IMG/VR virus record: IMGVR_UViG_2778261035_000005
DNA length: 64,000 nt
From: a virus
Lineage: Duplodnaviria; Heunggongvirae; Uroviricota; Caudoviricetes
Reading direction: 5' to 3' (one strand)
Shown here in pieces: positions 882 through 55,421 of the stretch. A model generated the notes under the pieces. That model was not told the DNA's origin and ran no database searches. It worked only from the letters and a program-made list of their open reading frames with translations. Made by a program: the position numbers and the translations under genes. Numbering within the stretch: position 1 is the stretch's first letter; the number at the start of each line of letters is the position of its first letter.

Positions 882-946
882 CCTGTTTCTGTATATAAAT
901 AATAAGTAACTTATTAAATATATATACGGAAGCAGGTCTTTTAAAA
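882..946 (+). terminator. long hairpin with A+T-rich loop followed by T-run (putative intrinsic terminator)
   Basis: arms cctgtttctgtatata (882-897) and tatatacggaagcagg (921-936), then cttttaaaag; near-identical element at 48816-48878. Confidence 0.45.
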
Positions 947-5578: not shown

Positions 5579-5811
5579 ATTTTTTGTTCTGTTGATATAG
5601 GATGAACAGTTTAGACGCGGCAAGTGTCAAGTGTGCGAAAAATGGTACTTAAATTTAGTTAATATGTCAGCTTTGTTGATTTAGTTTATGGTCGGTAAAG
5701 TTACTAGGAAACTAATAACCATAAGAAATAGTACGTCATTTAATTATTGTGGCACTGCTCGTGTTTTGATTAACTAATACCTGCGATAAATATAAATAAA
5801 GGGAAGCCAAC

Positions 5812-6225
5812 ATGAGCAAAAATAAGCTGATTTTAACAGGAGCTTTATTGTCTTTGTTTGCTTTAGTGGGGTGTAAGCCTACAGACGAGAAGGCTATTGC
5901 TCTGGGCCAACAAGCAATTGCGGATGATATGAAAGATCCCACGTCGGTGATGTTTAGGAAAGATAAGTTTGTCAGGACTGATCATGACGATGGGAGTGTG
6001 ACAGGCTTTGTGTGCGGAGAATTGAACGCCAAAAATGGCTTTGGTGCATACGTGGGCTATCACTCATATGTTGTTGAACTCGAAATGAAGCCAAAGGGCA
6101 TGTTTTCGAAAGGGGTGGTATACAAAATCCTATCGAAGTCGTTGGCACCTAATGATCCTCATGACTTACAGCGTTATAAGCAGGTCTACAGAAAGATGTG
6201 CAACAGTGAGGCTGTAGCTCATTAA
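5812..6225 (+). CDS. lipoprotein of unknown function
   Basis: signal peptide with lipobox LFALVGC; SD agggaag upstream. Confidence 0.6.
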   Translation: MSKNKLILTGALLSLFALVGCKPTDEKAIALGQQAIADDMKDPTSVMFRKDKFVRTDHDDGSVTGFVCGELNAKNGFGAYVGYHSYVVELEMKPKGMFSKGVVYKILSKSLAPNDPHDLQRYKQVYRKMCNSEAVAH

Positions 6226-6350
6226 TGGTGAATGCCGGGCAGACTATAAGCCCGGCATCTTCGTATAGGGAACTATTGCGCCTAAAATGATAAGTAGATA
6301 CATACTTAGTTTTTTGTAAGAATACTTTCATCTGTTAGCTAGGAGTTGGT

Positions 6351-7127: not shown

Positions 7128-7194
7128 GCTCTCTGTGTGTCGTTTTTTACGCAAACAATGATAGGTAAGCACAAGATTATTTCTGGCGGTAATT

Positions 7195-9795: not shown

Positions 9796-10009
9796 AAACA
9801 CAATGATAAGTATTTACTTACTTATCTTTTATGTATAAGATGACTTTGTTTTCGTTGAGACGCGACTGTTTGAACTTAAATACAAGTGCAAACGAAGAAG
9901 TCTATCTGGCAGTAGCCTAATAAGCCAAACACCAGCGAGGTCAGTTTCCAGCCTCGTTACCGAAATGGGACACACTGAGCGAGTGTGATTGCAGAACGCA
10001 GGAGGGAAC

Positions 10010-10574: not shown

Positions 10575-10649
10575 GATGGTGTAGCTCAGCGGTAGAGCAG
10601 TTGGCTGTTAACCAACTGGTCGGTGGTTCGAATCCACCCACCATCGCCA
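10575..10649 (+). tRNA. tRNA-Asn (anticodon GTT)
   Basis: cloverleaf by hand: acceptor GATGGTG/CACCATC, D-stem GCTC/GAGC, anticodon loop CTGTTAA, T-loop TTCGAAT, CCA end; differs from host-type tRNA-Asn. Confidence 0.85.
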
Positions 10650-10651
10650 AT

Positions 10652-10727
10652 GCCGGTTTAGCTCAGTTGGTAGAGCACCTGCCTTGTAAGCAGGATGTCA
10701 GCGGTTCGAATCCGTTAACCGGCACCA
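10652..10727 (+). tRNA. tRNA-Thr (anticodon TGT)
   Basis: acceptor GCCGGTT/AACCGGC, anticodon stem CCTGC/GCAGG, loop CTTGTAA, T-loop TTCGAAT, CCA. Confidence 0.85.
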
Positions 10728-10940
10728 ACACAACAGGAAAGAGCATTGAGAACCGCCGAGACTGCCCTGTTTGAAGCGTAAGTCCGTGCAAACGTCATAC
10801 AGTGCTCTTTTCGTTGTGGTGAATGCGGCTAAGCGCACGCGGGGAAATGGTTATATTGATCCTTTGTGATGACTATTGGCTCCGTCCACGGTGGATAACC
10901 AGCCAAAGGACACCGGGAAGCACCCGGCACCACAACAATT

Positions 10941-11027
10941 GGAGAGTAGGGAGCATGGTGCTCAAGCGGTCTTGAAAACCGTCCCATTGCGCAAGCGATG
11001 ATGGTTCGATTCCATTACTCTCCGCCA
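10941..11027 (+). tRNA. tRNA-Ser (anticodon TGA), class II with long variable arm
   Basis: acceptor GGAGAGT/ACTCTCC, anticodon loop CTTGAAA, long variable arm, T-loop TTCGATT, CCA. Confidence 0.75.
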
Positions 11028-12492: not shown

Positions 12493-12641
12493 TTCAGCTA
12501 GTTTAAAGCTGTCTTGCCGGTTCTAGTGTGTCAACCTCACAAAGCCATTTCTGCTTAGTAACCAAACACATTAAATAGGTAATGACTCACCTATTCATTT
12601 TAGCTATAGTCACGACACTTACTCACTTGAAAGGACTCTAT

Positions 12642-13196: not shown

Positions 13197-13751
13197 TCAA
13201 TCTTCCCTTTGTTTTGGGTAGTGTTGTGTTCGTATCGCATAGGAAGCTCCGTCATTTAAATAAGTTAGGCCACGCTCTTGTGTAAATCTCTTCACATATC
13301 TCTTGTATGTGGCCATCAGTTCTTCGCGTTCTGCCGCAAAGAATAAAATCTGTATGCCTTCATTGTCGGCAACTTTGAGCATTAAGTCAACTAAAGTACC
13401 GTAAAGGTATTGAAGTTCACCTAAAGTAAGATTAAAAGACCCTTCGGGTTTGGCAAATACGTTAATTGGCTCTTCCGCTCCAAGAGCGACATTCTGGAGC
13501 TGTTCTTGCTGCCTGTCAAGTTGAATCATGTCCACAAAACTAACGACAGATACACACAACCCATAAACATCAGCACCTAACATATTATGCATAGTTTCTG
13601 CGGCAACAGGATCTAAAGAAGGAGGGCAAAAGACTAAACGGTATCTAGCCTTACGAGCTTCATTGCCAGAGAAAACAAAGTCTATATCTAAATATGACAG
13701 ATCACCCGGCAATGAAGCCAAACCAGGTGTAACCAACTTATGCAAGTGCAT
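13197..13751 (-). CDS. hypothetical protein
   Basis: ORF track; agaggga SD upstream of ATG on minus strand; divergent from recombinase gene. Confidence 0.5.
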   Translation of the reverse strand: MHLHKLVTPGLASLPGDLSYLDIDFVFSGNEARKARYRLVFCPPSLDPVAAETMHNMLGADVYGLCVSVVSFVDMIQLDRQQEQLQNVALGAEEPINVFAKPEGSFNLTLGELQYLYGTLVDLMLKVADNEGIQILFFAAEREELMATYKRYVKRFTQERGLTYLNDGASYAIRTQHYPKQRED

Positions 13752-13887: not shown

Positions 13888-13920
13888 AATGATTCCATAC
13901 CTACTATGTATGGAATCATT
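13888..13920. other. lox/dif-like recombination core site candidate (13-bp inverted arms, 7-bp spacer)
   Basis: AATGATTCCATAC-CTACTAT-GTATGGAATCATT perfect inverted repeat 98 bp upstream of recombinase ATG. Confidence 0.5.
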
Positions 13921-14018
13921 ACTGAAAATGAGTTACTTTTACTCTTGATCCTATAAGAATCTATGCCTAATATACTGTTTACTTATACAGTGCATCGGCG
14001 TAACTCGGTGATTGTCAT

Positions 14019-15122
14019 ATGAAAAATAGCTTTGACAGAGCACGCGCTGCGGAGAACACCTCAAAAGAGGCGATTGAGTATCTCGAAAGAGCATCTCAAA
14101 TGCAGGCCGTTATGATCTCCCAGGTCAGCAATGACATGAGATTCTCGGACGCATTCATGTTATTCACTCGCTTATCTCTGCTGATAACAAGACGTCGGCC
14201 AGAGATCGCTGTTCATTGTATTTTGATACATGTTTTGCCGCACATTGCCGATGTAAAAGTAAGTGATATTAATAGGTTCATGGTGAACCAACTGGTCAAC
14301 CCACTAATACTGGATGGCAAAATTGTTATGGGTCGCCGCGTTTTCTCTCTGATGAAGCAGTTCCTCAGCTGGTGCGCCTTCCAGGGGATGATCGACGTGT
14401 CACCGTTAAACGATATGTCACTTAACAAAGTTGCCGGTGGCGCAAAGCCCACACCTCGCGAGCGGAAGCTAACCGACGCAGAGGTATGGGTGTTCTGGAA
14501 TATATGGGACTACTTCAATGTGTGTGCTGGTACAAAATGGGCGGCCAGGCTATGTCTTGTATCCGCAAGACGACCTGACGAAGTACTGCGGGCTAAAAAA
14601 AGTGAGTTCAACCTCCAGCGTGGGGTTTGGAATCAAGGCAAGAGAAACAAATCAGCCCGTGAGCATTCTCTGCCTTTAAGCACATTAATGCGCACATGCA
14701 TTGAAGAGTTATTCGAATATGGTAAAGGCAGCCAGTGGCTTGTGCCTTCGAATAAAAAAATCGGGAAAGATCTTCCGATGTCTAAAGTGGCAATAGCCCA
14801 GGCATTACGCCGTATCCTGGAACGACCAGAACTGATGGAGCTTGAGCCATTTACACCACGAGATTTGCGTCGTACTGCGCGTAGTTACTTCCCAGCATTA
14901 GGCATAAGCCAGGAGGTATCACGTAAAATCATGAACCACAGTCTTGAGGGGATAGATCGGGTCTACGACCGGCACGATTATATGGACGAGATGCGAGACG
15001 CCTTAGAAAGTTTCTCGACGTACATCGCATCAATCGTAGAGCAACCGGATTTAGACGAAATTGACCACAAATTCAAGGGAGATCGTCTATCGACAGAGCT
15101 TATTCGTGTAAATTTTTCATAG
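14019..15122 (+). CDS. tyrosine site-specific recombinase (integrase/resolvase family)
   Basis: C-terminal catalytic region PRDLRRTARSYF...HSLEGIDRVYDRHD (R, HxxR, Tyr); N-terminal ~120 aa lacks an obvious arm-binding domain. Confidence 0.75.
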   Translation: MKNSFDRARAAENTSKEAIEYLERASQMQAVMISQVSNDMRFSDAFMLFTRLSLLITRRRPEIAVHCILIHVLPHIADVKVSDINRFMVNQLVNPLILDGKIVMGRRVFSLMKQFLSWCAFQGMIDVSPLNDMSLNKVAGGAKPTPRERKLTDAEVWVFWNIWDYFNVCAGTKWAARLCLVSARRPDEVLRAKKSEFNLQRGVWNQGKRNKSAREHSLPLSTLMRTCIEELFEYGKGSQWLVPSNKKIGKDLPMSKVAIAQALRRILERPELMELEPFTPRDLRRTARSYFPALGISQEVSRKIMNHSLEGIDRVYDRHDYMDEMRDALESFSTYIASIVEQPDLDEIDHKFKGDRLSTELIRVNFS

Positions 15123-15503
15123 AGACTTTATGGCCTCAACAACCTTTTGTGATGCGCCTTTCTCTTTACCGAATCGCTCGTTATATGCAGCAAGAACCTG
15201 TTTTTCGTCCTCGTTAAGAGGAGCAGTGCCTTCTTTGTATAAAAATGCTGCGAGTTCGGGTTGGCGTTCTTCCAGCACCATCATCATAAGACGACTTGGC
15301 TCAATACCCAGTGCCAGCGCCAGCGGACGAACCTTATCGATAGGCAAAGGAATTTTGCCGCTTTTAATTAAAGAAAGGTTGTTGGCGTTTTTATACCCAA
15401 TTGTTTTGGCTATCTGGGCCTGGCTCATAGGTGAGGATTCAATCAACCCTGCGATAAAAGCAGCGTAGCGACTTTCTATAAATTCAATCTTGTTGTCAGA
15501 CAT
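15117..15503 (-). CDS. XRE-family HTH transcriptional regulator (repressor-like)
   Basis: HTH-like MSQAQIAKTIGYKNANNLSLIKSGK; divergent from small ORF; palindromic motif in its upstream region. Confidence 0.6.
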   Translation of the reverse strand: MSDNKIEFIESRYAAFIAGLIESSPMSQAQIAKTIGYKNANNLSLIKSGKIPLPIDKVRPLALALGIEPSRLMMMVLEERQPELAAFLYKEGTAPLNEDEKQVLAAYNERFGKEKGASQKVVEAIKSL

Positions 15504-15534
15504 TGTTACAACCTTTGCGCGTTCAATTCTCTCT

Positions 15535-15548
15535 GGTAAGTGCTTACC
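15535..15548. promoter_or_regulatory. palindromic operator-like site GGTAAG-TG-CTTACC in regulator promoter region
   Basis: perfect inverted repeat; member of motif family recurring in >=15 intergenic regions. Confidence 0.4.
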
Positions 15549-15754
15549 GATATTACATCAAAGGTTAGGGTTGTAAAGCTATTATCATTTTTTTCGGCAG
15601 GCACTTTAAAGACCGGACAAAGACCAATGCATGGTGAAAAACTAGCCCCAAATAGGTAAGAAAATTAACTTGCATCTAATATGGATGTATTCAGTATTGA
15701 TATAAATTTTAGTAGTATTCCTTACAATAGTATAAGTAAGAATGGATTGATTGA

Positions 15755-15967
15755 ATGAACACCACTATTTCCAGCCTAATAGCTCTTGAGATCGGACACG
15801 TACAAAAATTAGCTGATGAGTGTGTAGCTGACATCCTCACCGAGCTACCGAATGAGCAGATTGAGGTTGGTGTGAATGACACAACTGGCTTTATATTCGA
15901 ACTTAACAACAAACGCTTCACGCTTATCAATACCGGCTCCGGGTCTTTAGCCGTCAGAACCTGTTAA
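15755..15967 (+). CDS. small hypothetical protein (Cro-like position)
   Basis: ORF track; divergent from XRE regulator. Confidence 0.4.
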   Translation: MNTTISSLIALEIGHVQKLADECVADILTELPNEQIEVGVNDTTGFIFELNNKRFTLINTGSGSLAVRTC

Positions 15968-16065: not shown

Positions 16066-18174
16066 ATGTCCAAAAAACGTTCCATCAAAGAGGTTCAGGA
16101 CTTCCGTGACAGTGTAAAACGAGTAGTCGCTCTCCTTTCAGGTAAAAACATCCCTGTTGCAGAACGAGGGGACGACGCTTATGTACGCTATAACGATGAT
16201 GGAGAGCCAATTCTCGTAAACATCCCATCAATCCCAGATAACGCAACACCGGCATTGATGAATGCAGTACGCGGATTTCTAGATCATGAAGTTGCTCACA
16301 TTTTGTTTACCGATATTCATGTGTCCAACAAAATGAGAGAAAAAGGACACGTCCCTTCCTGGTCACTATGGAATGCCTTAGAAGACGTGTTCATCGAGCG
16401 AAAAATGGGGCAGGTCTTTAACGGAACAAGACGTAATCTGATGGCAACTCAGCGCCTGATAATCGAAAAAGTCTTTAAACCAAAGGCTTCAGAGGCTATT
16501 ACTTATTGTGGCAAAGATCAGCGCGCGCTTTTTCTAAACTTCTTTCTCTGTCCGGTTGTAAGAGCCTGGGATGGCCAAGCACCGTTCGTAGATTTCATGG
16601 ATGAATACTGGCCTGTCATTGAGAAACCAATTTCATTATTAAAAGAACATGGTATCGATGTGGCCGTGCGTAACATGTCTTGCACCGAGGATTGTTTAAA
16701 GGTGGCTGCGACCATAGCTAAGATCCTCAAAGACACAGAAAGTGAAAGCAAAGGTAAGGAGTCAGCTCCGGGAAAAACTCCCGATCCTTCAGACGCTGAC
16801 CAAGCGGATTCCTCTGGAGAAAGTAATGAAGACAATGAAGATCACAAGACACATGAGATGCTAGATAACCACATATCTATAGATGATGAGTCACACGGTA
16901 AGTACATACATGATGATAACGATAGTGATGATTCAGATAATTCTGAATCATCAGAAACAATATTCGATGATACAAAAAATGATAAAGAGGTATTAGATTC
17001 TGATACTTCCAATAGCGCGACGACAGAAGCAACTACCTCGGATCACGAAAAAAGAAAAACGGCAGAAGACGGCTCTTCAGACATTCCCACTCCGTCCAAA
17101 ATGAGTCTGGAAGAGGCTTTAGAGGAGCTTGATAGCATGGAAGATGAAGTCGGAGGCATGACAGAAGATGCACTATCCGAAACGATTAAAAGCGAGTTAA
17201 CAGAAAGCTCGAAAAGCGAATACAGGCCATACAATCGCTCATACGACTTCATCGGTTCGATTGATCAGGCAGAAGCCCATATCAAACGGCTTATTAAAAC
17301 ATTCTCCGATATTGATTTAGGTGGATATCCAATCAGCCGTTATCGCATCGTTCCTGAAGGCAACCAACTCTTCGACAAATATATTGAAAAGCATCTTTCG
17401 TCAGGTGTTTCGTCGACGCTGGCAAAAGACCTGGAGCGTGCAATTGCAAGCAGAAACAGAGTTCAGTTTATACCGGGCCAGCGTCGGGGGCGCATTCATG
17501 GTTCTAGTATCTACAGATTAGCAATGAATGATGATCGCGTGTTTCGTAAAAAAGAAGAATCTAAGGCCGTTAACGCCTGTGTTCAACAAGTGATTGATTT
17601 ATCAGGTTCAATGAGCGGCGAAACGATTAAACTGGCTCTTGCAAGTGCATATACCATCGCCGATGCGCTTGATCGAATAAATGTTCCCAACATTATCACC
17701 GGCTTCACAACATTTGGTAGTCATATGGCAGCAGGAGAGCTTAAGGCAATCAAGTATGAGTTCTCTCGCTTTGAATCTTTAATGCTACCTATCATCAAAA
17801 ATTGGAATGAAAAGGCAAATTCTCGCGAAGTTCGCTCACGTATGGGGTGCGTAGGCTACACATTCCCACTTCTTAATAACGTGGATGGTGAAAGCATAGC
17901 CAGCCTTGCATCGTTATTTTCTGGTCGCATGGAGGACAAGAAGATCATGCTTGTTCTAAGCGATGGCGCGCCGTGGGCTGTTGGGAGAGGTTTTGACGCT
18001 CATTTGCGTTCGGTTGCGAAGCAAATTGAAACGCAGACTGACATTGATTTGATGGCAATTGGCATCATGACTGACGCACCGGAGAGATTTTACGCAAACC
18101 ATGCCCTAGTAACGAGCGTTGATAGTCTTGGTTCATCTGTAGTTACTGAACTATCTCGTATCATTTTGAAGTGA
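16066..18174 (+). CDS. cobT: CobT-like protein with von Willebrand factor A domain
   Basis: MIDAS motif VIDLSGSMSG; long acidic Asp/Glu/Ser-rich linker; adjacent CobS-like ATPase. Confidence 0.65.
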   Translation: MSKKRSIKEVQDFRDSVKRVVALLSGKNIPVAERGDDAYVRYNDDGEPILVNIPSIPDNATPALMNAVRGFLDHEVAHILFTDIHVSNKMREKGHVPSWSLWNALEDVFIERKMGQVFNGTRRNLMATQRLIIEKVFKPKASEAITYCGKDQRALFLNFFLCPVVRAWDGQAPFVDFMDEYWPVIEKPISLLKEHGIDVAVRNMSCTEDCLKVAATIAKILKDTESESKGKESAPGKTPDPSDADQADSSGESNEDNEDHKTHEMLDNHISIDDESHGKYIHDDNDSDDSDNSESSETIFDDTKNDKEVLDSDTSNSATTEATTSDHEKRKTAEDGSSDIPTPSKMSLEEALEELDSMEDEVGGMTEDALSETIKSELTESSKSEYRPYNRSYDFIGSIDQAEAHIKRLIKTFSDIDLGGYPISRYRIVPEGNQLFDKYIEKHLSSGVSSTLAKDLERAIASRNRVQFIPGQRRGRIHGSSIYRLAMNDDRVFRKKEESKAVNACVQQVIDLSGSMSGETIKLALASAYTIADALDRINVPNIITGFTTFGSHMAAGELKAIKYEFSRFESLMLPIIKNWNEKANSREVRSRMGCVGYTFPLLNNVDGESIASLASLFSGRMEDKKIMLVLSDGAPWAVGRGFDAHLRSVAKQIETQTDIDLMAIGIMTDAPERFYANHALVTSVDSLGSSVVTELSRIILK

Positions 18175-18269
18175 TTAGAATAGCCTTAATGATAAGTAAT
18201 CACTTACGATATTTGATGGTATATTTATATAAGAAGTTGAAAGCTCATTAGAAAACAAAGGAAAAACGC

Positions 18270-24504: not shown

Positions 24505-24957
24505 ATGAACACCGATATTTACGAGAAAATAATGTCTGATCTCGAGTTTGACAGAGACAATCTGGAAGACGTCTGGCGTAAACAACCTCGCCTGTTGATG
24601 GAGTATGGTTCAAAGCTCGCCCATGCAGAAAGAAGTGTCGCAGAGGCAAAACTTAACCTTGAAGCTGTTGAAGCAAAGCTATACGACACAGAGCGTAAAA
24701 ACTTGAGTATGAATGGCATTAAGTTTAACGAATCTGTACTAGACGCTAAGGTTAAAACAAACCCACAGTATCTGTCTAAACGGCAGAAGTTGGATGAAGC
24801 ACGGCACATCGCAGACATATACAAACATGCTGTCGCCGCCTTTTCGCATCGCCGAGACATGATCGTTCAGGCGTCGAAGATGGCTATCGTTGAATTAGAG
24901 CGATTAGGCTCTGAACGCTTTATTACTCCCCGTTTATTTTTGATAGATAATAAGTAA
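24505..24957 (+). CDS. hypothetical protein
   Basis: ORF track. Confidence 0.5.
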   Translation: MNTDIYEKIMSDLEFDRDNLEDVWRKQPRLLMEYGSKLAHAERSVAEAKLNLEAVEAKLYDTERKNLSMNGIKFNESVLDAKVKTNPQYLSKRQKLDEARHIADIYKHAVAAFSHRRDMIVQASKMAIVELERLGSERFITPRLFLIDNK

Positions 24958-25053
24958 GTACTGATCTATCATTTAACAGCTCGAAAGAGCCACGAATGAA
25001 CGAAAGCCCAACGCGCATAGCGCCATCGGCCAAATCACAACAAGGAGAAACAC

Positions 25054-28458: not shown

Positions 28459-28521
28459 ATCTCTTGAAAATATATAAGTACTTACTTATTATTTTCGCAT
28501 AACAACCACATAGGAAAACAC

Positions 28522-30404: not shown

Positions 30405-30443
30405 GTTTACAGTAAAGTTTATATAAGTTAGTATTTACCTATC

Positions 30444-33807: not shown

Positions 33808-34061
33808 CCCTCCAGATCGTATATTGGCGTAGATAGAATCTACGCCTCCTCAAAATAGCTCTCATAGCGTTCTACAGTGATCCTGTCTTATTTTTAGTCA
33901 TACAGACAAGCAAAGTTGCGCCACAATAAATAGGTATATACTTACTTATAAATTTTGTATATTAAGGCGCTCGTTTCATTCCTAACATACCGTTATGCAT
34001 AGTTGTTTACCTCCTCATTGCTCTTAAAATTTGTATCAAAATAACCACAAAGGAAAAACAC

Positions 34062-38605: not shown

Positions 38606-38678
38606 TTTCATTGATAGGTAAGTGCTTATCTATTAACATGGGCCACTATATTTAGTGGCCCTCTTTATTTGGTGATAC

Positions 38679-42321: not shown

Positions 42322-43191
42322 ATGAACTTTACCAAACTGACTGACCACCTGAAACTTGCCACCGATCGTCTCATTGGATTTAAGCCAGAACCATATGAGT
42401 TGCATGAAGGTCATGGTGTAGCTACTGAAAGTATTTACAAGATGGTCGATCAGTTTCATGAACTCTTCCAGCATCCGAGACGCGTTATGCCGACACCAGA
42501 GCTGCTTCGTCTCCGTGCAAGCCTGATTCATGAAGAAGCTGTAGTGGAAGGTATTCCAGCCGCAATGAATGGGGATATTGAGCAACTGCTGGATGCAATG
42601 GCCGACTTTTTATACGTTGGTGTTGGTACGATGGTCGCCATCAAAGGTGGTATTTCTACCGGCATGACCTATTACACGCAGGAACAGAGCATTGATCGCT
42701 TTATGCAGACAATTTTTGTGCCCGGTAACACTGTTTTCGATGATATGGCAATGCCATTTCAGGAAGCTCGTGAGGCGTCATATATGCTCGAAGAGCTGGC
42801 AGATAAACTTGAGAACAAGACTGTTAAGGATTCTGAGCTGATTCAGGAACTGCGCCGTGTCATGAACAAAATCTATGTGGCGTGCATGATGACCTATCGA
42901 CTGGCTGATTTCCTCGGTATCAATGTAGTCGAGCTGGTTGGCGAAATTCATCGGTCTAACATGACAAAATTATGGCCTGCTGATGTCGAGGAACGTCGCC
43001 AGGCTGTGGCCAACTGCAAATACGACTCTTCAGACCTGGGATTTCGCCATGCTGATGGTACCGATAAGATGATCGGTTTTCGAATTTCCGATGGAAAGAT
43101 TCTGAAGTCTCCAACCTATAGTGATGTCGATTTATCCTCCTTTGTTGAGCAAGCTAAAGCCTCAGCAATGTACGGAATGATCAAAAAATAA
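42322..43191 (+). CDS. hypothetical protein (possibly all-alpha NTP pyrophosphohydrolase-like; weak)
   Basis: ORF track; location in nucleotide-metabolism block. Confidence 0.5.
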   Translation: MNFTKLTDHLKLATDRLIGFKPEPYELHEGHGVATESIYKMVDQFHELFQHPRRVMPTPELLRLRASLIHEEAVVEGIPAAMNGDIEQLLDAMADFLYVGVGTMVAIKGGISTGMTYYTQEQSIDRFMQTIFVPGNTVFDDMAMPFQEAREASYMLEELADKLENKTVKDSELIQELRRVMNKIYVACMMTYRLADFLGINVVELVGEIHRSNMTKLWPADVEERRQAVANCKYDSSDLGFRHADGTDKMIGFRISDGKILKSPTYSDVDLSSFVEQAKASAMYGMIKK

Positions 43192-43334
43192 TTGTAGGTA
43201 GTTATCTATCTATGTATATTGTGTTGGCGCGTTAAATTCCTGAAACAACTATTCGTTTTGGTGGCCTATGGCCACCATTTTTTTATCTATCTGGCCTTGT
43301 ACCCTCAATAAATGTAAACTCACGCAATGAATAA

Positions 43335-44465
43335 GTGATTACTTATCTTTGTGAGGTTTTTGTGTCACTCCTTTTGAATCGTGAGCATACGAACGGTCAG
43401 GTAACAAACGCATCGTATGCAAAAGTTATTGAGACGGTGCTTAAAAGCGGCGTGCAGGCTGATGATCGCACAGGCACTGGTACTTTAAGCACCTGCTACG
43501 TTCCCTCTTACTACATGCTTACTGGTGGGACTGTGCCGCTTATTTCTGGAAAGGCGGTAAATCTTAAGCCACTGCTTGTCGAACTTGAGTGGTATCTGAA
43601 AGGCACGGGCAACATCCAATTTCTCAAGGATAACGGCGTTAAGATTTGGGATGCATGGGCCGATGAGAATGGCGATTTGGGGCCAGTTTACGGTAAGCAG
43701 TGGCGTCGATGGGAAGATACCCGCATCGTGAGCCATAGTGAATATCTGAGCAAGATCGCTACTTTCCGTGAACGCGGGTACAAAGTCGAGGGATACCTAG
43801 GTATCAGTGAAGATCGCGTAGTGCTGTCCCGTGAAATCGATCAGCTACAGCGTATTGTCGATACACTGCGCACGAACCCTACCGATCGTCGCATCATGCT
43901 TAACGCATGGAACGTAGGCGAGCTTGAGGATATGAAACTGCCACCTTGCCACTTTGTCTTCTCTTTGTGGAGTCGTGAGCTTGATTTTGAAACCCGTTTA
44001 ACGATGGCAACTGACATTGGTCTTCAACACAGTCGCCTCGGTTACGAGTCTATCTACACCAAGATGCTATACGATCTGGAGATGGACGGCAGTGTTACTG
44101 AAGCTGAACTGGATGAACTTGGAATCCCCAAACGCATCCTCAACTCCTGCCTCGTACAGCGTAGCGTAGACACTTTTGTTGGTATGCCATTCAATATTGC
44201 TGGCTATGGCATTCTCACTCATTTTCTCGCGAAGATTACGGGTCACATGGCCGGTGCATTTGTGCATTTTGGCTTTGACGTGCATTTGTACAATAACCAC
44301 ATGGAAAGTGTGCGTGAGCTAATGCAACGACAGGCTCCAGAGCATTCAGATCCGGTCGTTATATTCCCTAATGAATGGTCTGAGCTGGATGATTTCAAAT
44401 GGGACGAGATTCTTATTCTTGGCTATGCCCCTCTACCGTGGATCAAGGTTCCAGTGGCGGTGTGA
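43335..44465 (+). CDS. thyA: thymidylate synthase homologue with two ~50-aa insertions
   Basis: DRTGTGT, WADENGDLGPVYGKQWR, active-site LPPCH, QRSVDTFVGMPFNIAGY; alternative GTG start at 43362. Confidence 0.85.
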   Translation: MITYLCEVFVSLLLNREHTNGQVTNASYAKVIETVLKSGVQADDRTGTGTLSTCYVPSYYMLTGGTVPLISGKAVNLKPLLVELEWYLKGTGNIQFLKDNGVKIWDAWADENGDLGPVYGKQWRRWEDTRIVSHSEYLSKIATFRERGYKVEGYLGISEDRVVLSREIDQLQRIVDTLRTNPTDRRIMLNAWNVGELEDMKLPPCHFVFSLWSRELDFETRLTMATDIGLQHSRLGYESIYTKMLYDLEMDGSVTEAELDELGIPKRILNSCLVQRSVDTFVGMPFNIAGYGILTHFLAKITGHMAGAFVHFGFDVHLYNNHMESVRELMQRQAPEHSDPVVIFPNEWSELDDFKWDEILILGYAPLPWIKVPVAV

Positions 44466-48140: not shown

Positions 48141-48198
48141 TTACCATACATAAAATCAAATGCAAAAATAGGTAATCACTTACCTATCGAGAAAGAAG

Positions 48199-48815: not shown

Positions 48816-48878
48816 CCTGCTTCTGTATATATAAATAACTACATATTAATTATTAATATACGGAAGCAGGCTGTTTTG
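48816..48878 (+). terminator. long hairpin with A+T-rich loop followed by T-run (copy of element at 882-946)
   Basis: arms cctgcttctgtatat / atatacggaagcagg then ctgttttg. Confidence 0.45.
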
Positions 48879-48977: not shown

Positions 48978-49208
48978 ATGTCATACCCGACTAATGTCGT
49001 TGCGCTCGTAGAGAGCGATTTTCTGGCCCAGGCTCGTGAAATGATGAAAGATCGTGAGCAGGCTTTCAACTTGTACGAATGGGCAATTAAGTGCTTGCAT
49101 CTTGGCGAGCATCGCGAACTTGTTGAACAGCTTTTAGGTGAGTTGATCAATGAGGTGTTTGCCTTGAATGTTCAACTACATGGTAGAGAAAATAATCAAT
49201 CACAATGA
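48978..49208 (+). CDS. hypothetical protein
   Basis: aagga SD 7 nt before ATG 48978 (track start 48954). Confidence 0.4.
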   Translation: MSYPTNVVALVESDFLAQAREMMKDREQAFNLYEWAIKCLHLGEHRELVEQLLGELINEVFALNVQLHGRENNQSQ

Positions 49209-49791
49209 TAGATAAGTACAAACCATTCATAAAGTGAATTGTAAGTGCTAAGATCTGATAGTTTCCAGTCGTAGACTGGAGACTCGACCTGATGGGTGGG
49301 GGTAAGCGTCACTGGCGTCAGGTTTAAAAAAGCTCACTACCAGCGTAGAACTGGTGCCGTTTAGGTGTCGGGGAAGGGGGAACCAAAGTGAGCAGAGACA
49401 AGGGTCACTTTATGATTGTCGAGTCTGGGGTGTTTCGAGAGGTTGAATCCAGTACTCCCCTTCATAAAGTGTGGGAAGATCTCGGTTCTGGGGTGCTGTC
49501 ATCCATAACTTCCCAAGTCTAAGCTGGCAGTAGACTTAGACCATAACTTTTCAGGTTATGAAACGACCAGGTTGGTGAGAGATTTTTATACTCACCTCCC
49601 TGGGAGAGTATTACCTGAAAAGACAACCTCTCACTTCGTTCGAGGTGAACTTCACTCACTTCGTTCGTTCAGTTCAGGTTTATAAAAACCTGTTCTGGGA
49701 AGTAATTTGTTTATTTTAATAATTATTAACACGCACGCGTGTGCGCACGCGCGAGGAAAAAATCGGCGCGGCGCTTGATTCAGGAGTTTAT

Positions 49792-50385
49792 ATGACGACG
49801 AAGACACCAGCCCGATCGCAAGCAAAAACTCGCAAAAAAGCCAAAAACAAAAATTCTCCCCGCACCAATCCCACAACGCCTGTCGTAGAGTTCAATCCCC
49901 AGCTTAAAACCGTGAAAATCTTCAGTGATGGCTCTTGCCTTAAAAATCCGGGTGGCCCGGGCGGTTACGGTATCGTTCTTCAGTATCGTGGAGAGGAACG
50001 CGAGTTCTCAGATGGTTTTCATAGCACCACCAATAACCGCATGGAGATGATGGGGGCACTTATCGGGCTGGAGCGTTTGAAATATCCATGCAACGTTATT
50101 TTGCACTCTGATAGCCAGTATCTGAAAAACGGCATGACACTGTGGATGAAATGGTGGAAACGCAATGGATGGATGACTTCTGACAAAAAACCGGTAAAGA
50201 ATGTTGATCTGTGGAAGCGTCTGGATGAGGCCGCAAGTCGACATAATGTTCGCTGGAAGTGGGTTAAAGGCCACGCCGGGCATCGTGAAAATGAAATATG
50301 TGATCGACTCGCGAAGATCGCAGCTTTTTCCGCAGCAGATATGCCTCACAAGAAAGATATTGGTTTTGTTTATAACAAACAGTAA
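49792..50385 (+). CDS. rnhA: ribonuclease HI with basic N-terminal extension
   Basis: [61 protein letters not shown] near-colinear with bacterial RnhA; aggag SD before ATG 49792. Confidence 0.9.
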
Positions 50386-50530
50386 GTAAGTGTTTACCTA
50401 TCATTTTAAATCATGTATCTTATCGGCGTCAGGATGACAATGTGTCGGTAAGACACAGTTCCAGGATGGAACGAGAAAGGCGGCTGGCAATCGCCAGCCG
50501 CAACTCTTTCTGACACTGGATGGAGTCCAA

Positions 50531-53674: not shown

Positions 53675-55360
53675 ATGAATACAACTCTTTCCATCATCGA
53701 CGATACCAACTCAAACACTGCTATCGATTATCGTCAGGAAATGAACGTCATCCACGAAATCGTAGCCGAGTGCGAGAAAGAGATCGCCTTCATGTATCAG
53801 GTTCACGACTTCGTTTATTGCGATGAACGCCACAACATGATTAATCGCCTGCTTCGACTAAACCATAGACCAGATGAAGATCGCTCCCGTTTGAATCGAA
53901 TCTGGCTGGATAAAGTCGATCTGGAATGGGTGAAACAGAATATTTGGGCCGAGTACTGGAGGAAGGTCACGGACATGACTAACGTTCTGCTGATCATGCC
54001 AGCTTCCCGTCGCGACGAGTGGCGTGAGCAGTTTATCGAGGGCAAGCAGGAAGTCACCAAAACTGACAGAACCGGCTACCAGATGAAGGTTAAAGAGTTC
54101 GTTGGTGTACCGGAGTTCAAAGCAGAAACGGTCATACCAACGATGCTTAATTTGCTGAATGACAGGCACAAATATCTCTCCGAGCGCGTGTATGGCTTGT
54201 TTAAGGCGCTGAGTCCTGCGCACAAGACAAATAAGACGAACGGTTTCAGCGAGCGTCTGATAATCGCTGACTGCATTTCTGATTTCTGGCGGGACAGCGT
54301 TAGTGTGAACTATCGCAAAGAGGACTATATCGACGATCTGCGTGTCTTGCTTCATTTCTTCGCGCACAAAGAATTTATTACCATCAACCGCACTGCTGAG
54401 GTGCTATCAGCTGCGTATCGGGCAAACGACTGCCAGACCGGTGACTGGATGAACGTCGATGGAAATCTGATGCGCGTGAAGATGTTCAAGAACGGCAATG
54501 TTCACTTTGAAATACATCCTGACGTGGCTTGGAAGTTGAATGAGGTGCTGGCTTACAGTATGCCTGCTGCAATCCCCGCACCATGCCGCACTGCGCCAAA
54601 AACACGGGCACCAAAGCAGTTCGGGTTAATCCAGAAGACGATCTCCGTGCCGGTTCGCACTGCGCTTCGTGACGGGCGATTTAGCAAAGACAAAGGCGTA
54701 TGGTACTTCTCTGATTCAGCTCTCCAGAAGTCGCAGGTGGAAGAGCTTGAGCGCACACTGAGCTTCATTGGCGGCGTGCAGGAGAAAAAGCACTGGCAGT
54801 TCCCGTATGAGATCGGCCATACGCTAAATACGATTGTGGCTACTGGTTTAATACCGGATACAAAATCACACCAGTTCTACCCTACCCCACGCTTGATTGC
54901 TGAGTACGTTGCCAGAGCCACTGAATTGAAGCCTGGTGAGAAGCTGTTGGAGCCTCAAGCCGGACGTGGGGATCTTATGGCCTATATTAACGCCGATCTG
55001 GAAGATGTTACCTGCATAGAAATCGCACCTCTCTTCGCTGATATCCTGCGTGGAAAAGGGTATACGAACACGATTTGCTGCGACTTCATAAAGTGGTCTG
55101 AGGACAACGCAGGTTATCAGTTCGACAAAATCGTTATGAACCCGCCGTACTCGCTTGGTCGTCATAGAGAGCACACGCTGGCTGCGCTGGGGCATCTGAA
55201 AGTCGGCGGGCGTCTTGTAGCAGTATTGCCGGGCACTGCGCCAATACTGGACTGGATGACGATGGATAATTACGTTTATGCCAGAGGGAAGTCGTTTACC
55301 AACGAGTTTGAAGACACAGGGATCACAGTCAGCGTATACGTTTTCAAACGCGTTAAATGA
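53675..55360 (+). CDS. DNA methyltransferase (N6-adenine type, motif I then NPPY) with ~400-aa N-terminal domain of unknown function
   Basis: LEPQAGRGDL (motif I) and IVMNPPYS (motif IV) in the C-terminal third. Confidence 0.65.
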   Translation: MNTTLSIIDDTNSNTAIDYRQEMNVIHEIVAECEKEIAFMYQVHDFVYCDERHNMINRLLRLNHRPDEDRSRLNRIWLDKVDLEWVKQNIWAEYWRKVTDMTNVLLIMPASRRDEWREQFIEGKQEVTKTDRTGYQMKVKEFVGVPEFKAETVIPTMLNLLNDRHKYLSERVYGLFKALSPAHKTNKTNGFSERLIIADCISDFWRDSVSVNYRKEDYIDDLRVLLHFFAHKEFITINRTAEVLSAAYRANDCQTGDWMNVDGNLMRVKMFKNGNVHFEIHPDVAWKLNEVLAYSMPAAIPAPCRTAPKTRAPKQFGLIQKTISVPVRTALRDGRFSKDKGVWYFSDSALQKSQVEELERTLSFIGGVQEKKHWQFPYEIGHTLNTIVATGLIPDTKSHQFYPTPRLIAEYVARATELKPGEKLLEPQAGRGDLMAYINADLEDVTCIEIAPLFADILRGKGYTNTICCDFIKWSEDNAGYQFDKIVMNPPYSLGRHREHTLAALGHLKVGGRLVAVLPGTAPILDWMTMDNYVYARGKSFTNEFEDTGITVSVYVFKRVK

Positions 55361-55421
55361 TAGGTAAACACTTACTTAATTTGTGTAAGAATATAATAAC
55401 TAAACGATAAGAGAAAAACAC

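What the first reader, a model, noticed from the sequence alone, without database searches (positions are those of the whole stretch)
15531..15551. Genome-wide palindromic motif family (ATAGGTAA-N2-4-TTACCTAT) centred on the XRE regulator promoter
Near-palindromic sites sit at gene boundaries throughout the element: ~1021, 7160, 9805, 18191, 24942, 28474, 33929, 38614, 43195, 43331, 48168, 50385, 55359, plus GGTAAG-TG-CTTACC at 15535-15548 and half-sites near 15650 and 15738 in the regulator/cro-like intergenic region. Sites at 50385 and 55359 share a 20-bp core in opposite orientation. This looks like a dimeric-regulator regulon, with the XRE protein (15117-15503) the obvious candidate.
Basis: seen in the sequence. 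Interest (0 to 1): 0.6.

Follow-up and report, generated by a model that had tools for sequence, protein, structure and literature searches.

The report
Genome-wide repressor operators, SSU5-like phage-plasmid
A 20-base palindrome repeated about twenty times between the genes of this plasmid-like prophage is real, is conserved across the whole SSU5 family (including Yersinia pestis pMT1), and is most likely the docking site through which the element's own small repressor keeps its lytic genes silent, much like the "stoperators" of mycobacteriophage L5.

Summary
The window is the early/replication half of an SSU5-like phage-plasmid, about 95% identical to Escherichia phages PhiR41_1 and Cyrano. 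The motif is real. It is a fixed-spacing 20-bp palindrome, ATARGTAAGTACTTACYTAT. In intergenic DNA it gives 11 hits at ≤3 mismatches against 0.08 expected from shuffles. There are about 18-20 sites in the window and about 24 per genome, in both early and late operons.

Sites are kept at syntenic positions in Salmonella, Klebsiella and Yersinia relatives. An Acinetobacter relative carries a variant, ATCAGTCAGTACTGACTGAT, distributed the same way. The two half-sites vary independently, so this is a DNA site for a dimer and not an RNA hairpin. It occurs only on plasmids, never on E. coli chromosomes.

The 15535-15548 core sits directly after the -10 of the conserved XRE-gene promoter. Sites overlap or adjoin promoters in varying registers, and some abut start codons or terminators. 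That fits a repressor operator or roadblock, not a fixed-geometry activator.

The XRE protein is the best candidate binder. It is the only one of five candidate regulators conserved in Acinetobacter, and its recognition helix changes where the motif changes. It is expressed in the Cyrano lysogen, and it is missing only from the lytic-isolated SSU5. Binding is not shown. The closest analogue is the L5 repressor/stoperator system.

The parts
15532..15551 (.). Operator at the XRE-gene promoter (core GGTAAGTGCTTACC, 15535-15548). The outer positions are degenerate.
   Evidence: It lies 1 nt downstream of the -10 TAATAT, so it covers the predicted transcription start. It is the best conserved block of the 250-bp intergenic region in the E. 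coli, Klebsiella and Y. pestis lineages.
15550..15577 (-). Predicted sigma-70 promoter of the XRE gene: TTTACA (15577-15572), 16-nt spacer, TAATAT (15555-15550).
   Evidence: Promoter scan. Both hexamers are invariant across lineages.
15117..15503 (-). XRE-type HTH protein, 128 aa. Candidate lysogeny repressor; 100% identical to Cyrano CYRAN_45.
   Evidence: HTH_19 scores E=7.8e-4, below Pfam's cut-off. phrog_8 transcriptional regulator scores 1e-11. The AlphaFold model has its recognition helix at residues 41-47. The fold matches P22 c2, 434 Cro, C.AhdI, Stl and the SPC32H Rep. It is 100% identical to CYRAN_45, which is expressed at 10x background in the lysogen (PMC9928086).
1022..1041 (.). 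Site ATAAGTAAGTAACTACCTAC, 12 nt upstream of the ATG of the gene that precedes helicase and primase.
   Evidence: Orthologous sites in Klebsiella (4893), SSU5 (33600) and PhiR41_1 (75254).
6290..6309 (.). Site ATAAGTAGATACATACTTAG, followed by TGTAAGAAT.
   Evidence: Orthologues in SSU5 (38178), Klebsiella (9754) and pMT1. Homology to Cyrano and PhiR41_1 resumes exactly here.
7161..7180 (.). Site ATAGGTAAGCACAAGATTAT. The right half is degenerate.
   Evidence: Orthologues in Klebsiella (10648) and PhiR41_1 (79565).
9806..9825 (.). Strongest site, ATAAGTATTTACTTACTTAT. It overlaps the -35 of TTTACT-17-TAAGAT, upstream of a conserved leader and three tRNA genes.
   Evidence: In the Klebsiella orthologue the -35 and the -10 both shift by 4 bp relative to the site. 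tRNAs.
12575..12594 (.). Site ATAGGTAATGACTCACCTAT.
   Evidence: Orthologue in Klebsiella (15507).
16861..16880 (.). Weak intragenic site inside the CobT-like gene.
   Evidence: Syntenic intragenic sites in SSU5 (43661), Klebsiella (21842), PhiR41_1 (89478) and the L133-135 lineage.
18192..18211 (.). Site ATAAGTAATCACTTACGATA, upstream of the CobS-like AAA gene.
   Evidence: Orthologues in pMT1 (23354), L097 and L133-136.
24950..24969 (.). Site ATAAGTAAGTACTGATCTAT. It overlaps the stop codon of the UvsY-like gene and lies upstream of the gp32-like SSB gene.
   Evidence: Orthologues in Klebsiella and pMT1.
28470..28489 (.). Site ATATATAAGTACTTACTTAT. It forms the spacer and the start of the -10 in TTGAAA-17-TATTAT, just after a terminator.
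   Evidence: (10 of 12 promoter match). The same arrangement is seen in SSU5 and pMT1.
30423..30442 (.). Site ATAAGTTAGTATTTACCTAT. It ends 1 nt before an ATG and overlaps the -10 of TTTACA-17-TAGTAT.
   Evidence: Orthologues in SSU5, Klebsiella and pMT1.
33930..33949 (.). Site ATAGGTATATACTTACTTAT, upstream of the SbcD-like gene.
   Evidence: Orthologue in SSU5 (63080).
38614..38633 (.). Site ATAGGTAAGTGCTTATCTAT. It is followed after 6 nt by an intrinsic terminator (38640-38661), upstream of the RNR alpha gene.
   Evidence: The same arrangement is seen in SSU5 (67775).
43190..43209 (.). Weak site AATTGTAGGTAGTTATCTAT.
   Evidence: Orthologue in SSU5 (72357).
43327..43346 (.). Site ATGAATAAGTGATTACTTAT, upstream of thymidylate synthase. 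The left half is degenerate.
   Evidence: The register is fixed by the orthologues in SSU5 (72511) and PhiR41_1 (7947).
48168..48187 (.). Perfect site ATAGGTAATCACTTACCTAT, 11 nt upstream of the ATG of a DNA-methylase-like gene.
49208..49227 (.). Site ATAGATAAGTACAAACCATT.
50382..50401 (.). Site GTAAGTAAGTGTTTACCTAT. It overlaps the RNase H stop codon and is the reverse complement of the 55360 site at 19 of 20 positions.
   Evidence: The SSU5 orthologue (79904) is the best-scoring site of all.
55360..55379 (.). Site ATAGGTAAACACTTACTTAA. It overlaps the stop codon of the upstream methyltransferase gene.
15755..15967 (+). Conserved acidic 70-aa ORF, divergent from XRE. It has a positional equivalent in Acinetobacter. 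Its function is unknown; it may be an antirepressor, and it is not Cro-like by any test.
13945..13990 (+). Recombinase promoter TTGATC-17-TAATAT with an overlapping LexA box (13975-13990). Transcription from it converges on XRE.
   Evidence: The box is conserved in five enterobacterial lineages.

Best explanation
The palindromes are operators for an element-encoded dimeric repressor. That repressor is most probably the 128-aa XRE-type protein at 15117-15503.

In the plasmid-prophage state the repressor would occupy about 25 sites, scattered through short intergenic spaces of both early and late operons. Some sites overlap the -35, the spacer, the -10 or the transcription start of sigma-70 promoters, and would block initiation. 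Others sit directly before a start codon or a terminator. These would act as roadblocks or insulators, like L5 stoperators.

A weaker core site covering the start point of the repressor's own promoter would give negative autoregulation. The protein has no autocleavage domain, so induction must be indirect. That could be through an antirepressor, or through SOS-controlled transcription from the LexA-boxed recombinase promoter, which converges on the repressor gene.

**Shown:** the sites, their statistics, their conservation, their DNA-level (non-RNA) nature, their positions, and the covariation.

**Inferred:** that XRE is the binder, that binding represses, and the induction route.
For: 1. **Enrichment.** 13 hits against 0.17 expected in the window. 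11 against 0.076 in intergenic-only shuffles.
2. **Symmetric DNA site.** The pairing frequency equals that of column shuffles: 203 against 200.9±4.2, and 81.3% against 81.5%. At positions 4/17 the combinations A:T, A:C, G:C and G:T are all about equally common.
3. **Element-specific.** 840 places on plasmids and 0 on chromosomes in 5,426 complete E. coli genomes.
4. **Purifying selection.** Syntenic sites in SSU5, Klebsiella, pMT1 and pFF979 sit within diverged flanks.
5. **Own promoter.** The core site lies immediately after the -10 of the conserved XRE promoter. Acinetobacter also has sites in its XRE intergenic region.
6. **Co-occurrence.** Of five candidate regulators, only XRE has a homologue in the Acinetobacter phage-plasmid, which has about 29 variant sites.
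7. **Covariation.** Lineages with an identical recognition helix (KN[AP]N[NI]LS), despite 56-66% protein identity, keep the motif. Acinetobacter (KRPNVLS) has A>C at positions 3 and 7. The L133-136 lineage (ENANNLSN..T) has A>G at position 8 (Fisher p=8e-5). The L097 lineage (KYQNQVSF) is enriched for T at position 4 (p=1e-3).
8. **Repressor-like geometry.** The best promoter's register relative to the site varies from -3 to +49. The orthologous 9806 promoter shifts by 4 bp relative to the site. Sites lie 1-16 nt from the ATG.
9. **Lysogen expression.** CYRAN_45 (identical to XRE) is expressed in the LF82 lysogen and Cyrano is ciprofloxacin-inducible (PMC9928086). Lysogeny-expressed Cyrano genes have no consensus site upstream, and every consensus site precedes a gene that is not on that list.
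10. **Distribution of the module.** The int-XRE module is present in essentially all of about 820 SSU5-like plasmids. It is absent only from phage SSU5, whose 98-99% identical relatives have it.
11. **Fold.** Cro/CI-type HTH fold with no S24 domain.
Against: - No binding or expression experiment links XRE to the sites.
- The lineages with variant helices are also the more divergent ones, so any other co-evolving DNA-binding protein would show the same pattern. This amounts to only about three independent events.
- In the L097 lineage, the operator at the XRE promoter keeps the canonical GGTAA core even though the helix differs.
- No consensus site covers the putative promoter of the divergent 70-aa ORF.
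- SSU5 keeps excellent sites without XRE. This is explained by a recent deletion, but it is equally expected if the sites are needed during lytic growth.
- One motif covers both early and late genes, which leaves temporal control of lytic growth unexplained.
- The Pfam HTH hit is below the gathering threshold, and the Foldseek E-values are weak (≥8e-3).
- Promoter registers come from a crude consensus scorer, not from mapped transcription starts.
Confidence: 0.6

Rival explanations
1. The sites are bound by a different element-encoded regulator that acts in lytic growth. This would be an activator or dual regulator that switches on -35-poor promoters and, from the site at the XRE promoter, shuts off the repressor (phi29 p4-like or Cro-like logic). 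XRE would then be a target, not the binder.
For: - Consensus sigma-70 promoters are depleted in the window (28 against 36, 19 against 29, 12 against 30), so many promoters may need help.
- SSU5 lacks XRE yet keeps high-quality sites.
- The same motif precedes late structural and lysis genes.
- The site at the XRE promoter is in a repressing position.
- Other small conserved regulators exist: a 71-aa wHTH, a 70-aa Cra-like protein and a FljA-like protein.
Against: - There is no fixed distance between the site and any -10. TANNNT is enriched only at the site's own edge, and symmetrically on both sides.
- Registers vary widely.
- Several sites lie 1-16 nt from start codons or directly before terminators, where an activator cannot work.
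- None of the alternative regulators tested has a homologue in the Acinetobacter lineage, which has the same system.
- SSU5's loss of XRE is recent.
Confidence: 0.17
2. The palindromes work as RNA or single-stranded DNA hairpins. They could be terminators, RNase III or processing sites, mRNA stabilisers, or operators for a translational repressor such as the FljA-like protein.
For: - They lie in transcribed intergenic spacers, often next to Shine-Dalgarno sequences or terminators.
- An 8-bp stem with a 4-nt loop is possible, and about 81% of positions pair.
- Relatives encode a PF03614 FljA-like protein (1.3e-68). FljA is reported to bind mRNA (from memory).
Against: - There is no compensatory variation. 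Pairing and covariation scores equal those of column shuffles (338/500 and 274/500 shuffles are at least as high).
- A:C mismatches on the sense strand are as common as G:U.
- Most sites are not followed by a T-run.
- The site at the XRE promoter lies on the opposite strand.
- The FljA-like protein is absent from Acinetobacter.
Confidence: 0.05
3. The repeats are mainly recombination or module-shuffling cassettes, like the promoter-stem-loop PeSL elements of T4-type phages, or they are binding sites for a host factor.
For: - One mosaic breakpoint with Cyrano and PhiR41_1 falls exactly at site 6290.
- The arrangement of site, then terminator, then gene recalls PeSLs (from memory of Arbiol et al. 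2010).
- The motif differs between Enterobacteria and Acinetobacter, as a host factor's site might.
Against: - Most breakpoints do not coincide with sites.
- The sites are short, and they are conserved in position at 75-80% background identity.
- There are no chromosomal copies in 5,426 E. coli genomes, which argues against a host regulon.
- A variant motif exists within enterobacterial-type lineages.
Confidence: 0.06

Closest known systems
Cluster A mycobacteriophage (L5, Bxb1) immunity repressor with operators and 'stoperators'
   Same: - There are 20-30 repressor sites spread through the genome.
- Most sites are in short intergenic spaces of both early and late operons. A few are true promoter operators.
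- A conserved site upstream of the repressor gene is proposed to give autoregulation.
- Motif and repressor co-vary between heteroimmune relatives.
- Some members are extrachromosomal with parABS.
- D29 is an obligately lytic derivative that lacks a functional repressor (PMC6550527). This parallels SSU5.
   Different: - L5 sites are 13-bp and asymmetric. They are bound without cooperativity and oriented with transcription. Here they are 20-bp palindromes, which implies a dimer and no orientation.
- The repressor is an unrelated small XRE-type protein.
- The hosts are Gram-negative.
- Roadblock activity is not shown here.
Phage P1 C1 repressor and its dispersed operators (from memory: more than a dozen 17-bp asymmetric operators controlling many separate operons in a plasmid prophage; antirepressor-based induction)
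   Same: Both are plasmid prophages with many separate lytic transcription units. Each unit is guarded by its own operator. The repressor is non-cleavable and there is an indirect SOS link.
   Different: - P1 operators are asymmetric, and C1 (283 aa) is unrelated.
- P1 late genes use a separate activator (Lpa) and a different inverted repeat. Here one motif covers the late genes too.
Lambdoid/P22/434 CI-Cro operators
   Same: Both have a Cro/CI-type HTH fold (rmsd 1.6-1.9 Å to P22 c2 and 434 Cro over about 62 residues). The operators are palindromic, they overlap promoters, and the repressor is negatively autoregulated.
   Different: - Lambdoid phages have 2-3 operator clusters at one switch region, not about 25 dispersed single sites.
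- There is no S24 autocleavage domain here.
- There is no recognisable Cro partner here.
Non-cleavable XRE repressors released by antirepressors (Salmonella phage SPC32H Rep-Ant; SaPI Stl)
   Same: These are the top structural neighbours. Both have a short HTH plus a helical C-terminal part with no peptidase domain. The element is SOS-inducible (ciprofloxacin, PMC9928086).
   Different: No antirepressor has been identified here. The site architecture and number differ.

Membership tests
XRE / Cro-CI-type HTH repressors | Sequence membership in an HTH_3/HTH_19-type Pfam family at the curated threshold | tested here: not met
   HTH_19 scores 19.7 bits against a gathering score of 30.2 (E=7.8e-4). 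There is no NCBIfam hit. The protein does match phrog_8 'transcriptional regulator' at 1.3e-11.
XRE / Cro-CI-type HTH repressors | Five-helix Cro/CI-like DNA-binding fold with a helix-turn-helix | tested here: met
   The AlphaFold model has pLDDT 85-88 over residues 11-80, with helices at 28-34 and 41-47. Foldseek gives TM 0.7-0.8 and rmsd 1.5-1.9 Å to C.AhdI, P22 c2 and 434 Cro, though the E-values are weak.
XRE / Cro-CI-type HTH repressors | Binds a palindromic operator as a dimer | not testable with these tools
   This is only inferred, from the 20-bp palindrome, the independently varying half-sites and the helix/motif covariation.
LexA/lambda-CI-type self-cleaving repressors | C-terminal S24 peptidase domain | tested here: not met
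   There is no Pfam, PHROG or NCBIfam peptidase hit. The C-terminal 50 residues are predicted to be helical.
L5-type repressor/stoperator network | About 20-30 copies of one motif dispersed over the genome, mostly in short intergenic spaces of early and late operons | tested here: met
   There are about 18-20 sites in the 64-kb window, about 21 in PhiR41_1 after removing three hairpin-embedded hits, about 20 in SSU5 and about 26-29 in the Acinetobacter element. These include sites between the terminase, portal, capsid, tail and lysis genes.
L5-type repressor/stoperator network | [quoted passage not shown] | tested here: not met
   The sites are 20-bp palindromes. Only the flanks are asymmetric.
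L5-type repressor/stoperator network | Conserved site upstream of the repressor gene | tested here: met
   The core site abuts the -10 of the XRE promoter in all enterobacterial lineages. Sites are also present in the Acinetobacter XRE intergenic region.
L5-type repressor/stoperator network | Motif and repressor co-vary between relatives | tested here: inconclusive
   Three variant-helix lineages have shifted motifs, and helix-identical lineages keep the motif. However, the events are few, they are confounded with overall divergence, and the L097 autoregulatory site stays canonical.
L5-type repressor/stoperator network | Bound repressor blocks transcription elongation | not testable with these tools
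   This is suggested only by sites lying 1-16 nt from start codons or just upstream of terminators, where no promoter fits.
Intrinsic terminator / structured RNA element | Base pairing maintained by compensatory change; stem followed by a U-run | tested here: not met
   The covariation score is 0.138 against 0.140 in shuffles, and pairing is 81.3% against 81.5%. The terminator scan does not call the sites themselves, only separate GC-rich hairpins next to some of them.
Fixed-geometry transcription activator site (class II / MotA-box / P1 Lpa-like) | Constant distance between the site and the -10 element | tested here: not met
   No downstream offset is enriched for TANNNT. The best promoter registers are scattered. 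The orthologous 9806 promoters differ by 4 bp.

The most novel reading that the evidence does not exclude
SSU5-type phage-plasmids, including Y. pestis pMT1 and S. Typhi pHCM2-like plasmids, would be silenced by a palindromic stoperator/insulator network. Under this reading, a single small non-cleavable XRE dimer clamps about 25 intergenic sites. Many of these sites are fused to intrinsic terminators, so that each gene block becomes a separately locked unit.

The lock would be opened not by an antirepressor but by SOS-induced transcription from the LexA-boxed recombinase promoter. That transcription runs head-on into the overlapping repressor gene, so induction would work by convergent transcriptional interference or antisense RNA.
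Probability: 0.15. Interest if true: 0.75.

Novelty: new variant of a known kind. Interest (0 to 1): 0.5.

Why it matters
**How common the elements are.** SSU5-like phage-plasmids are frequent in clinical Enterobacteriaceae and Acinetobacter. About 820 PLSDB plasmids carry this DnaE and XRE module. They include Y. pestis pMT1, and the literature reports that they can carry resistance genes. Their lysis/lysogeny control is essentially uncharacterised, and I found no paper describing this motif.

**What the operator map provides.** A defined operator consensus, a genome-wide site map and a named candidate repressor yield testable predictions:
- Which genes are silenced in the plasmid state.
- Which elements should be homo- or hetero-immune. 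At least three motif/helix types exist.
- Why SSU5 behaves as a lytic phage.
- How one might cure or induce these plasmids, or design virulent derivatives for phage therapy.

**Wider point.** This would extend the many-dispersed-operators (stoperator) strategy from actinobacteriophages and P1 to a third, unrelated group, using a symmetric site.

Tried and rejected
- **RNA hairpin hypothesis: rejected.** My own permutation test and the count of structure pairs both show no covariation.
- **SSU5 lacks XRE, so XRE cannot be the binder: rejected as an argument.** All 822 related plasmids, including relatives 98-99% identical to SSU5, carry an insertion at that junction. The deletion is therefore recent.
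- **Host-factor regulon: rejected.** There are no chromosomal matches in 5,426 E. coli genomes.
- **Fixed -10 downstream of the site (activator model): not found**. The recurring TGTAAGAAT / TGTATAAGAT strings occur at only a few sites, at varying offsets.
- **Half-sites at 15650 and 15738: not conserved**.
- **Other candidate regulators.** The wHTH 71 aa, the Cra-like 70 aa and the FljA-like 172 aa proteins are present in SSU5 but not detectable in Acinetobacter. The FljA-like gene has no nearby site.
- **Literature searches.** Searches for the motif strings and for SSU5 regulation returned nothing relevant. One preprint could not be opened.
- **PDB sequence search with XRE:** no hits.
- **Photorhabdus XRE homologue locus (L015):** not obviously an SSU5-like element, with only one motif-like site, so uninformative.
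- **The L097 (KYQNQV) lineage** could not be extended beyond 20 kb. It is absent from PLSDB and IMG/VR, so its motif shift rests on 5-7 sites.
- **PWM hits at 902 and 48831** belong to a different inverted repeat and were excluded.
Full report
**What the window is.** Megablast places the window in an SSU5-like phage-plasmid. It is 94-96% identical to Escherichia phages PhiR41_1, CMS-2020a and Cyrano (pLF82), and 77-81% identical to Salmonella phage SSU5 and to Klebsiella phage-plasmids. By comparison with the annotated relatives, the 64 kb cover the non-structural half. That half includes:
- helicase, primase, ligase and three tRNAs;
- a tyrosine recombinase, then the XRE-type regulator on the opposite strand;
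- CobT/CobS-like genes, DnaE, UvsY-, gp32- and RecA-like genes, RepA and SbcCD;
- ribonucleotide reductase, thymidylate synthase, DHFR and methylases;
- a block of accessory genes.

**Checking the observation.**
- The stated pattern has one perfect copy, at 48168.
- With the spacer fixed at four bases and ≤3 mismatches, there are 13 copies against 0.17 expected.
I therefore repeated the count on the 8.9 kb of intergenic sequence only. There were 11 copies against 0.076±0.28 in 500 dinucleotide-preserving shuffles of those same segments.
- An iterated symmetric weight matrix gives about 18-20 credible sites. All but one are intergenic, although intergenic DNA is only about 10% of the window.
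- About half of the co-directional gaps of ≥20 nt carry a site, against one of six divergent gaps.
- The alignment of 35-40 sites gives ATARGTAAGTACTTACYTAT. T2 and T6 are invariant. A3, G5, A7 and their mirror positions are above 90%. The centre is preferentially GTAC. The unit is therefore a 20-bp perfect palindrome with fixed spacing.
- The 50382 and 55360 sites are reverse complements at 19 of 20 positions.
- The half-sites at about 15650 and about 15738 are not conserved, even in PhiR41_1.
- PWM hits at 902 and 48831 lie in the loop of a different 15-bp-arm inverted repeat.

**DNA site or RNA structure.** If a hairpin mattered, departures from consensus would be compensated. They are not.
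- Watson-Crick pairs number 203, against 200.9±4.2 when the right halves are shuffled among sites.
- The tool-based count gives 81.3% paired cells against 81.5% in shuffles, and a covariation score of 0.138 against 0.140.
- At the variable pair 4/17, the combinations A:T, A:C, G:C and G:T are about equally frequent.

The two halves therefore behave as independent copies of one half-site. That is the signature of a duplex site for a symmetric dimer.

**Family-wide conservation.**
- The same motif occurs in the structural half of PhiR41_1. Sites lie between the portal, capsid, tail and fibre genes and upstream of the holin.
- It occurs about 20 times in SSU5, and also in Klebsiella pJN2-26, Y. 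pestis pMT1 and the divergent Klebsiella plasmid pFF979_1.
- Most window sites have a syntenic counterpart in these genomes, although the surrounding intergenic sequence has diverged.
- The perfect 20-mer occurs 26 times in IMG/VR, on contigs of SSU5-like size. Several of these contigs also carry the XRE and DnaE genes.
- In 5,426 complete E. coli genomes, a 32-nt consensus probe matches 840 places on plasmids and none on chromosomes. The motif therefore belongs to the element, not to a host regulon.

**A variant in Acinetobacter.** An A. baumannii phage-plasmid of the related AB group has DnaE about 37% identical and the same gene order. De novo inverted-repeat counting on it recovered a different palindrome, ATCAGTCAGTACTGACTGAT.
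- It has about 26-29 copies, 12 of them with a perfect 14-bp core.
- It matches the enterobacterial half-site at eight of ten positions (A>C at positions 3 and 7).
- It has the same distribution: at gene boundaries, in the late operon, often just before a terminator, twice in the XRE intergenic region and once before the CobT-like gene.

**Position relative to promoters.** The core site at 15535-15548 lies one base downstream of the -10 of TTTACA-16-TAATAT on the XRE strand. It therefore spans the predicted transcription start. Promoter and site together form the only strongly conserved block of the 250-bp intergenic region across the E. coli, Klebsiella and Yersinia types.

Elsewhere the geometry varies:
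- At 28470 and its orthologues, the site is the 17-bp spacer plus the first half of the -10 of TTGAAA-17-TATTAT.
- At 9806 it carries the -35 (TTTACT-17-TAAGAT). In the Klebsiella orthologue, both hexamers shift by 4 bp relative to the site.
- At 30423 it overlaps a -10 and ends one base before the ATG.
- At 48168, at 1022 and at the SSU5 terminase/portal junction, it lies 11-16 nt from the start codon.
- At 38614, and at several late-region sites, it is followed within 6-10 nt by an intrinsic terminator.

No downstream offset is enriched for a -10. The register of the best sigma-70 match is scattered in both lineages. Even so, forward-strand promoter scores near sites exceed both reverse-strand scores and scores at random positions (7.5, 5.6 and 3.5). 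This heterogeneity is what one expects of repressor operators and roadblocks. It is not what one expects of an activator that must contact RNA polymerase at a fixed distance.

**Which protein binds.** The XRE-type protein matches HTH_19 only below Pfam's threshold, but it matches phrog_8 at 1e-11. The model has pLDDT 85-88 across the HTH. It superposes on P22 c2, 434 Cro and C.AhdI at 1.5-1.9 Å. Stl and the SPC32H Rep are the best full-length neighbours, and there is no S24 domain.

Several lines of evidence point to it:
- Its homologues in a 5.8-billion-protein search all sit on contigs of phage-plasmid size.
- The int-XRE module is present in essentially every SSU5-like plasmid. There are 865 XRE matches against about 822 DnaE matches above 60% identity, with near-identical genus counts.
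- It is absent only from phage SSU5 and one partial prophage record. All 822 plasmids, including Enterobacter plasmids 98-99% identical to SSU5, have an insertion at the SSU5 junction. SSU5 is therefore a recent deletion derivative. From memory, SSU5 was isolated and used as a lytic biocontrol phage.
- Of five candidate small regulators, only XRE has a homologue in the Acinetobacter element (48% identity, E=3e-22).
- Across about 160 fetched loci, the recognition helix falls into a few types. KNANNLS, KNPNNLS and KNPNILS keep the canonical half-site, although the proteins are only 56-66% identical.
- Three variant helices go with shifted motifs. KRPNVLS (Acinetobacter) goes with the C3/C7 variant. 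ENANNLSN..T (L133-136 lineage, DnaE 77%) goes with G at position 8 (9/10 against 18/76, p=8e-5). KYQNQVSF (L097 lineage, DnaE 92%) shows more T at position 4 (5/10 against 4/70, p=1e-3).
- CYRAN_45, which is identical to the window protein, is expressed tenfold above the prophage background in the LF82 lysogen. The authors list it as the presumed master repressor, and Cyrano is induced by ciprofloxacin (PMC9928086).
- In the 39 kb of Cyrano that I scanned, none of the lysogeny-expressed genes has a consensus site upstream. Every consensus site precedes a gene that is not on that list.

**Caveats.**
- None of this shows binding.
- The covariation rests on about three events in lineages that are divergent in other ways too.
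- In the L097 lineage, the site at the XRE promoter remains canonical.
- SSU5's well-preserved sites would also be expected if the motif were needed for lytic transcription.
- A single motif in front of both early and late genes leaves timing unexplained.
- The neighbouring 70-aa ORF is acidic (9 D/E, 4 K/R) and has no DNA-binding signature. "Cro-like" is therefore unsupported. It is conserved in position even in Acinetobacter and could be an antirepressor.

**Comparison with known systems.** The closest described system is the Cluster A mycobacteriophage immunity system. It has 20-30 repressor sites throughout the genome. A few are promoter operators. Most are "stoperators" in intergenic spaces that block elongation. 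A conserved site lies upstream of the repressor gene. Motif and repressor co-vary among relatives. D29 is an obligately lytic repressor-deletion derivative (PMC6550527).

The present case matches these features except for two defining ones:
- The sites are symmetric, not asymmetric and oriented.
- The protein is an unrelated XRE-type HTH.

Phage P1's C1 repressor, with its dispersed asymmetric operators, is the other analogue (from memory). I therefore class this as working like an L5/P1-type dispersed-operator silencing system, but as a new variant and not a member of either.

**Induction (inference only).** A canonical LexA box overlaps the -10 of the recombinase promoter (TTGATC-17-TAATAT, 13945-13990). 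It is conserved in five enterobacterial lineages. The recombinase gene converges on XRE and overlaps its 3' end. SOS-driven convergent transcription is therefore a possible induction route. An antirepressor is the conventional alternative.

**Verdict.** I assign about 0.8 that these are duplex operators for an element-encoded repressor, and about 0.6 that the XRE protein is that repressor.

Noticed in passing
window 882-936 and 48816-48870: A separate, larger inverted repeat: CCTG(C/T)TTCTGTATAT, an A+T-rich loop of about 25 nt, then ATATACGGAAGCAGG. There are two copies in the window and three per genome in PhiR41_1 and SSU5. Its loop mimics the palindrome motif. Its function is unknown; it could be a bidirectional terminator, a partition site or a replication site.
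   Followed up: partly
window 13889-13919: A lox/FRT-like site, ATGATTCCATAC-CTACTAT-GTATGGAATCAT, about 100 nt upstream of the tyrosine recombinase gene. It is conserved in five lineages and is probably the dimer-resolution site of the 'integrase'.
   Followed up: partly
window 13945-13990, with genes 14019-15122 (+) and 15117-15503 (-): The recombinase promoter TTGATC-17-TAATAT is overlapped by a consensus LexA box (CTGT-N8-ACAG), conserved in the E. coli, Klebsiella, pMT1, pFF979 and L097 lineages. The recombinase gene converges on the XRE gene and overlaps its end by 6 nt. This suggests SOS-driven transcriptional interference or antisense control of the repressor.
   Followed up: partly
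window 61140-61155: A perfect LexA box, CTGTATGCATATACAG, lies 19 nt upstream of a UmuD-like gene (61174-61563).
   Followed up: no
window 9845-9875 and 10575-11027: The strongest site (9806) and its promoter are followed by a leader that is almost identical in the E. coli, Salmonella, Klebsiella and Yersinia elements (TTTGTTTTCGTTGAGACGCGACTGTTTGAAC...). About 700 nt further on lie tRNA-Asn, tRNA-Thr and tRNA-Ser. There is no Rfam match other than the tRNAs, so this may be an unannotated RNA.
   Followed up: partly
whole window, + strand: Consensus sigma-70 promoter matches are fewer than in shuffles: 28 against 36, 19 against 29, and 12 against 30.5 in the three 20-kb thirds.
   Followed up: no
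window 6290; also 4425-6290: Homology with Cyrano and PhiR41_1 breaks at about 4400 and resumes exactly at the first base of site 6290. The site therefore bounds a replaced gene module, which hints that the repeats may also serve as recombination joints.
   Followed up: no
window 38614-38661; SSU5 (L005) 5471, 15589, 21937; PhiR41_1 late region: A recurrent architecture: stop codon, then palindrome, then 6-10 nt, then a GC-rich intrinsic terminator, then RBS and ATG. A transcript started just after the palindrome would begin inside the terminator stem and so escape termination.
   Followed up: partly
window 27356-28429: The RecA-like gene is 1,074 nt here but 2,340 nt in Cyrano and PhiR41_1. 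Those two carry an insertion of about 1.26 kb at window position about 27546, possibly an intein or homing element.
   Followed up: no
window 30444-30623: A conserved 59-aa ORF starts one base after site 30423, with no Shine-Dalgarno sequence. The predicted promoter TTTACA-17-TAGTAT would give a leaderless mRNA.
   Followed up: no
L005 (SSU5) 42600-42760, versus window 12.7-16.0 kb: Phage SSU5 lacks the whole recombinase-XRE-70-aa-ORF module. All 822 related plasmids have DNA inserted at that junction. SSU5 looks like a recent lysogeny-module deletion mutant, analogous to mycobacteriophage D29.
   Followed up: yes
L004 192-710 (PhiR41_1 37192-37710); SSU5_121: Relatives encode a 172-aa protein that matches Pfam Flag1_repress (FljA, repressor of phase-1 flagellin) at 1.3e-68. 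It lies outside this window. It has no palindrome nearby and is not detectable in the Acinetobacter element.
   Followed up: partly
window 13197-13751 (-): This is the homologue of CYRAN_43. In the LF82 lysogen, CYRAN_43 is reported as by far the most expressed Cyrano gene, at 723x the local background (PMC9928086). It is a hypothetical 184-aa protein, divergent from the LexA-controlled recombinase promoter.
   Followed up: no
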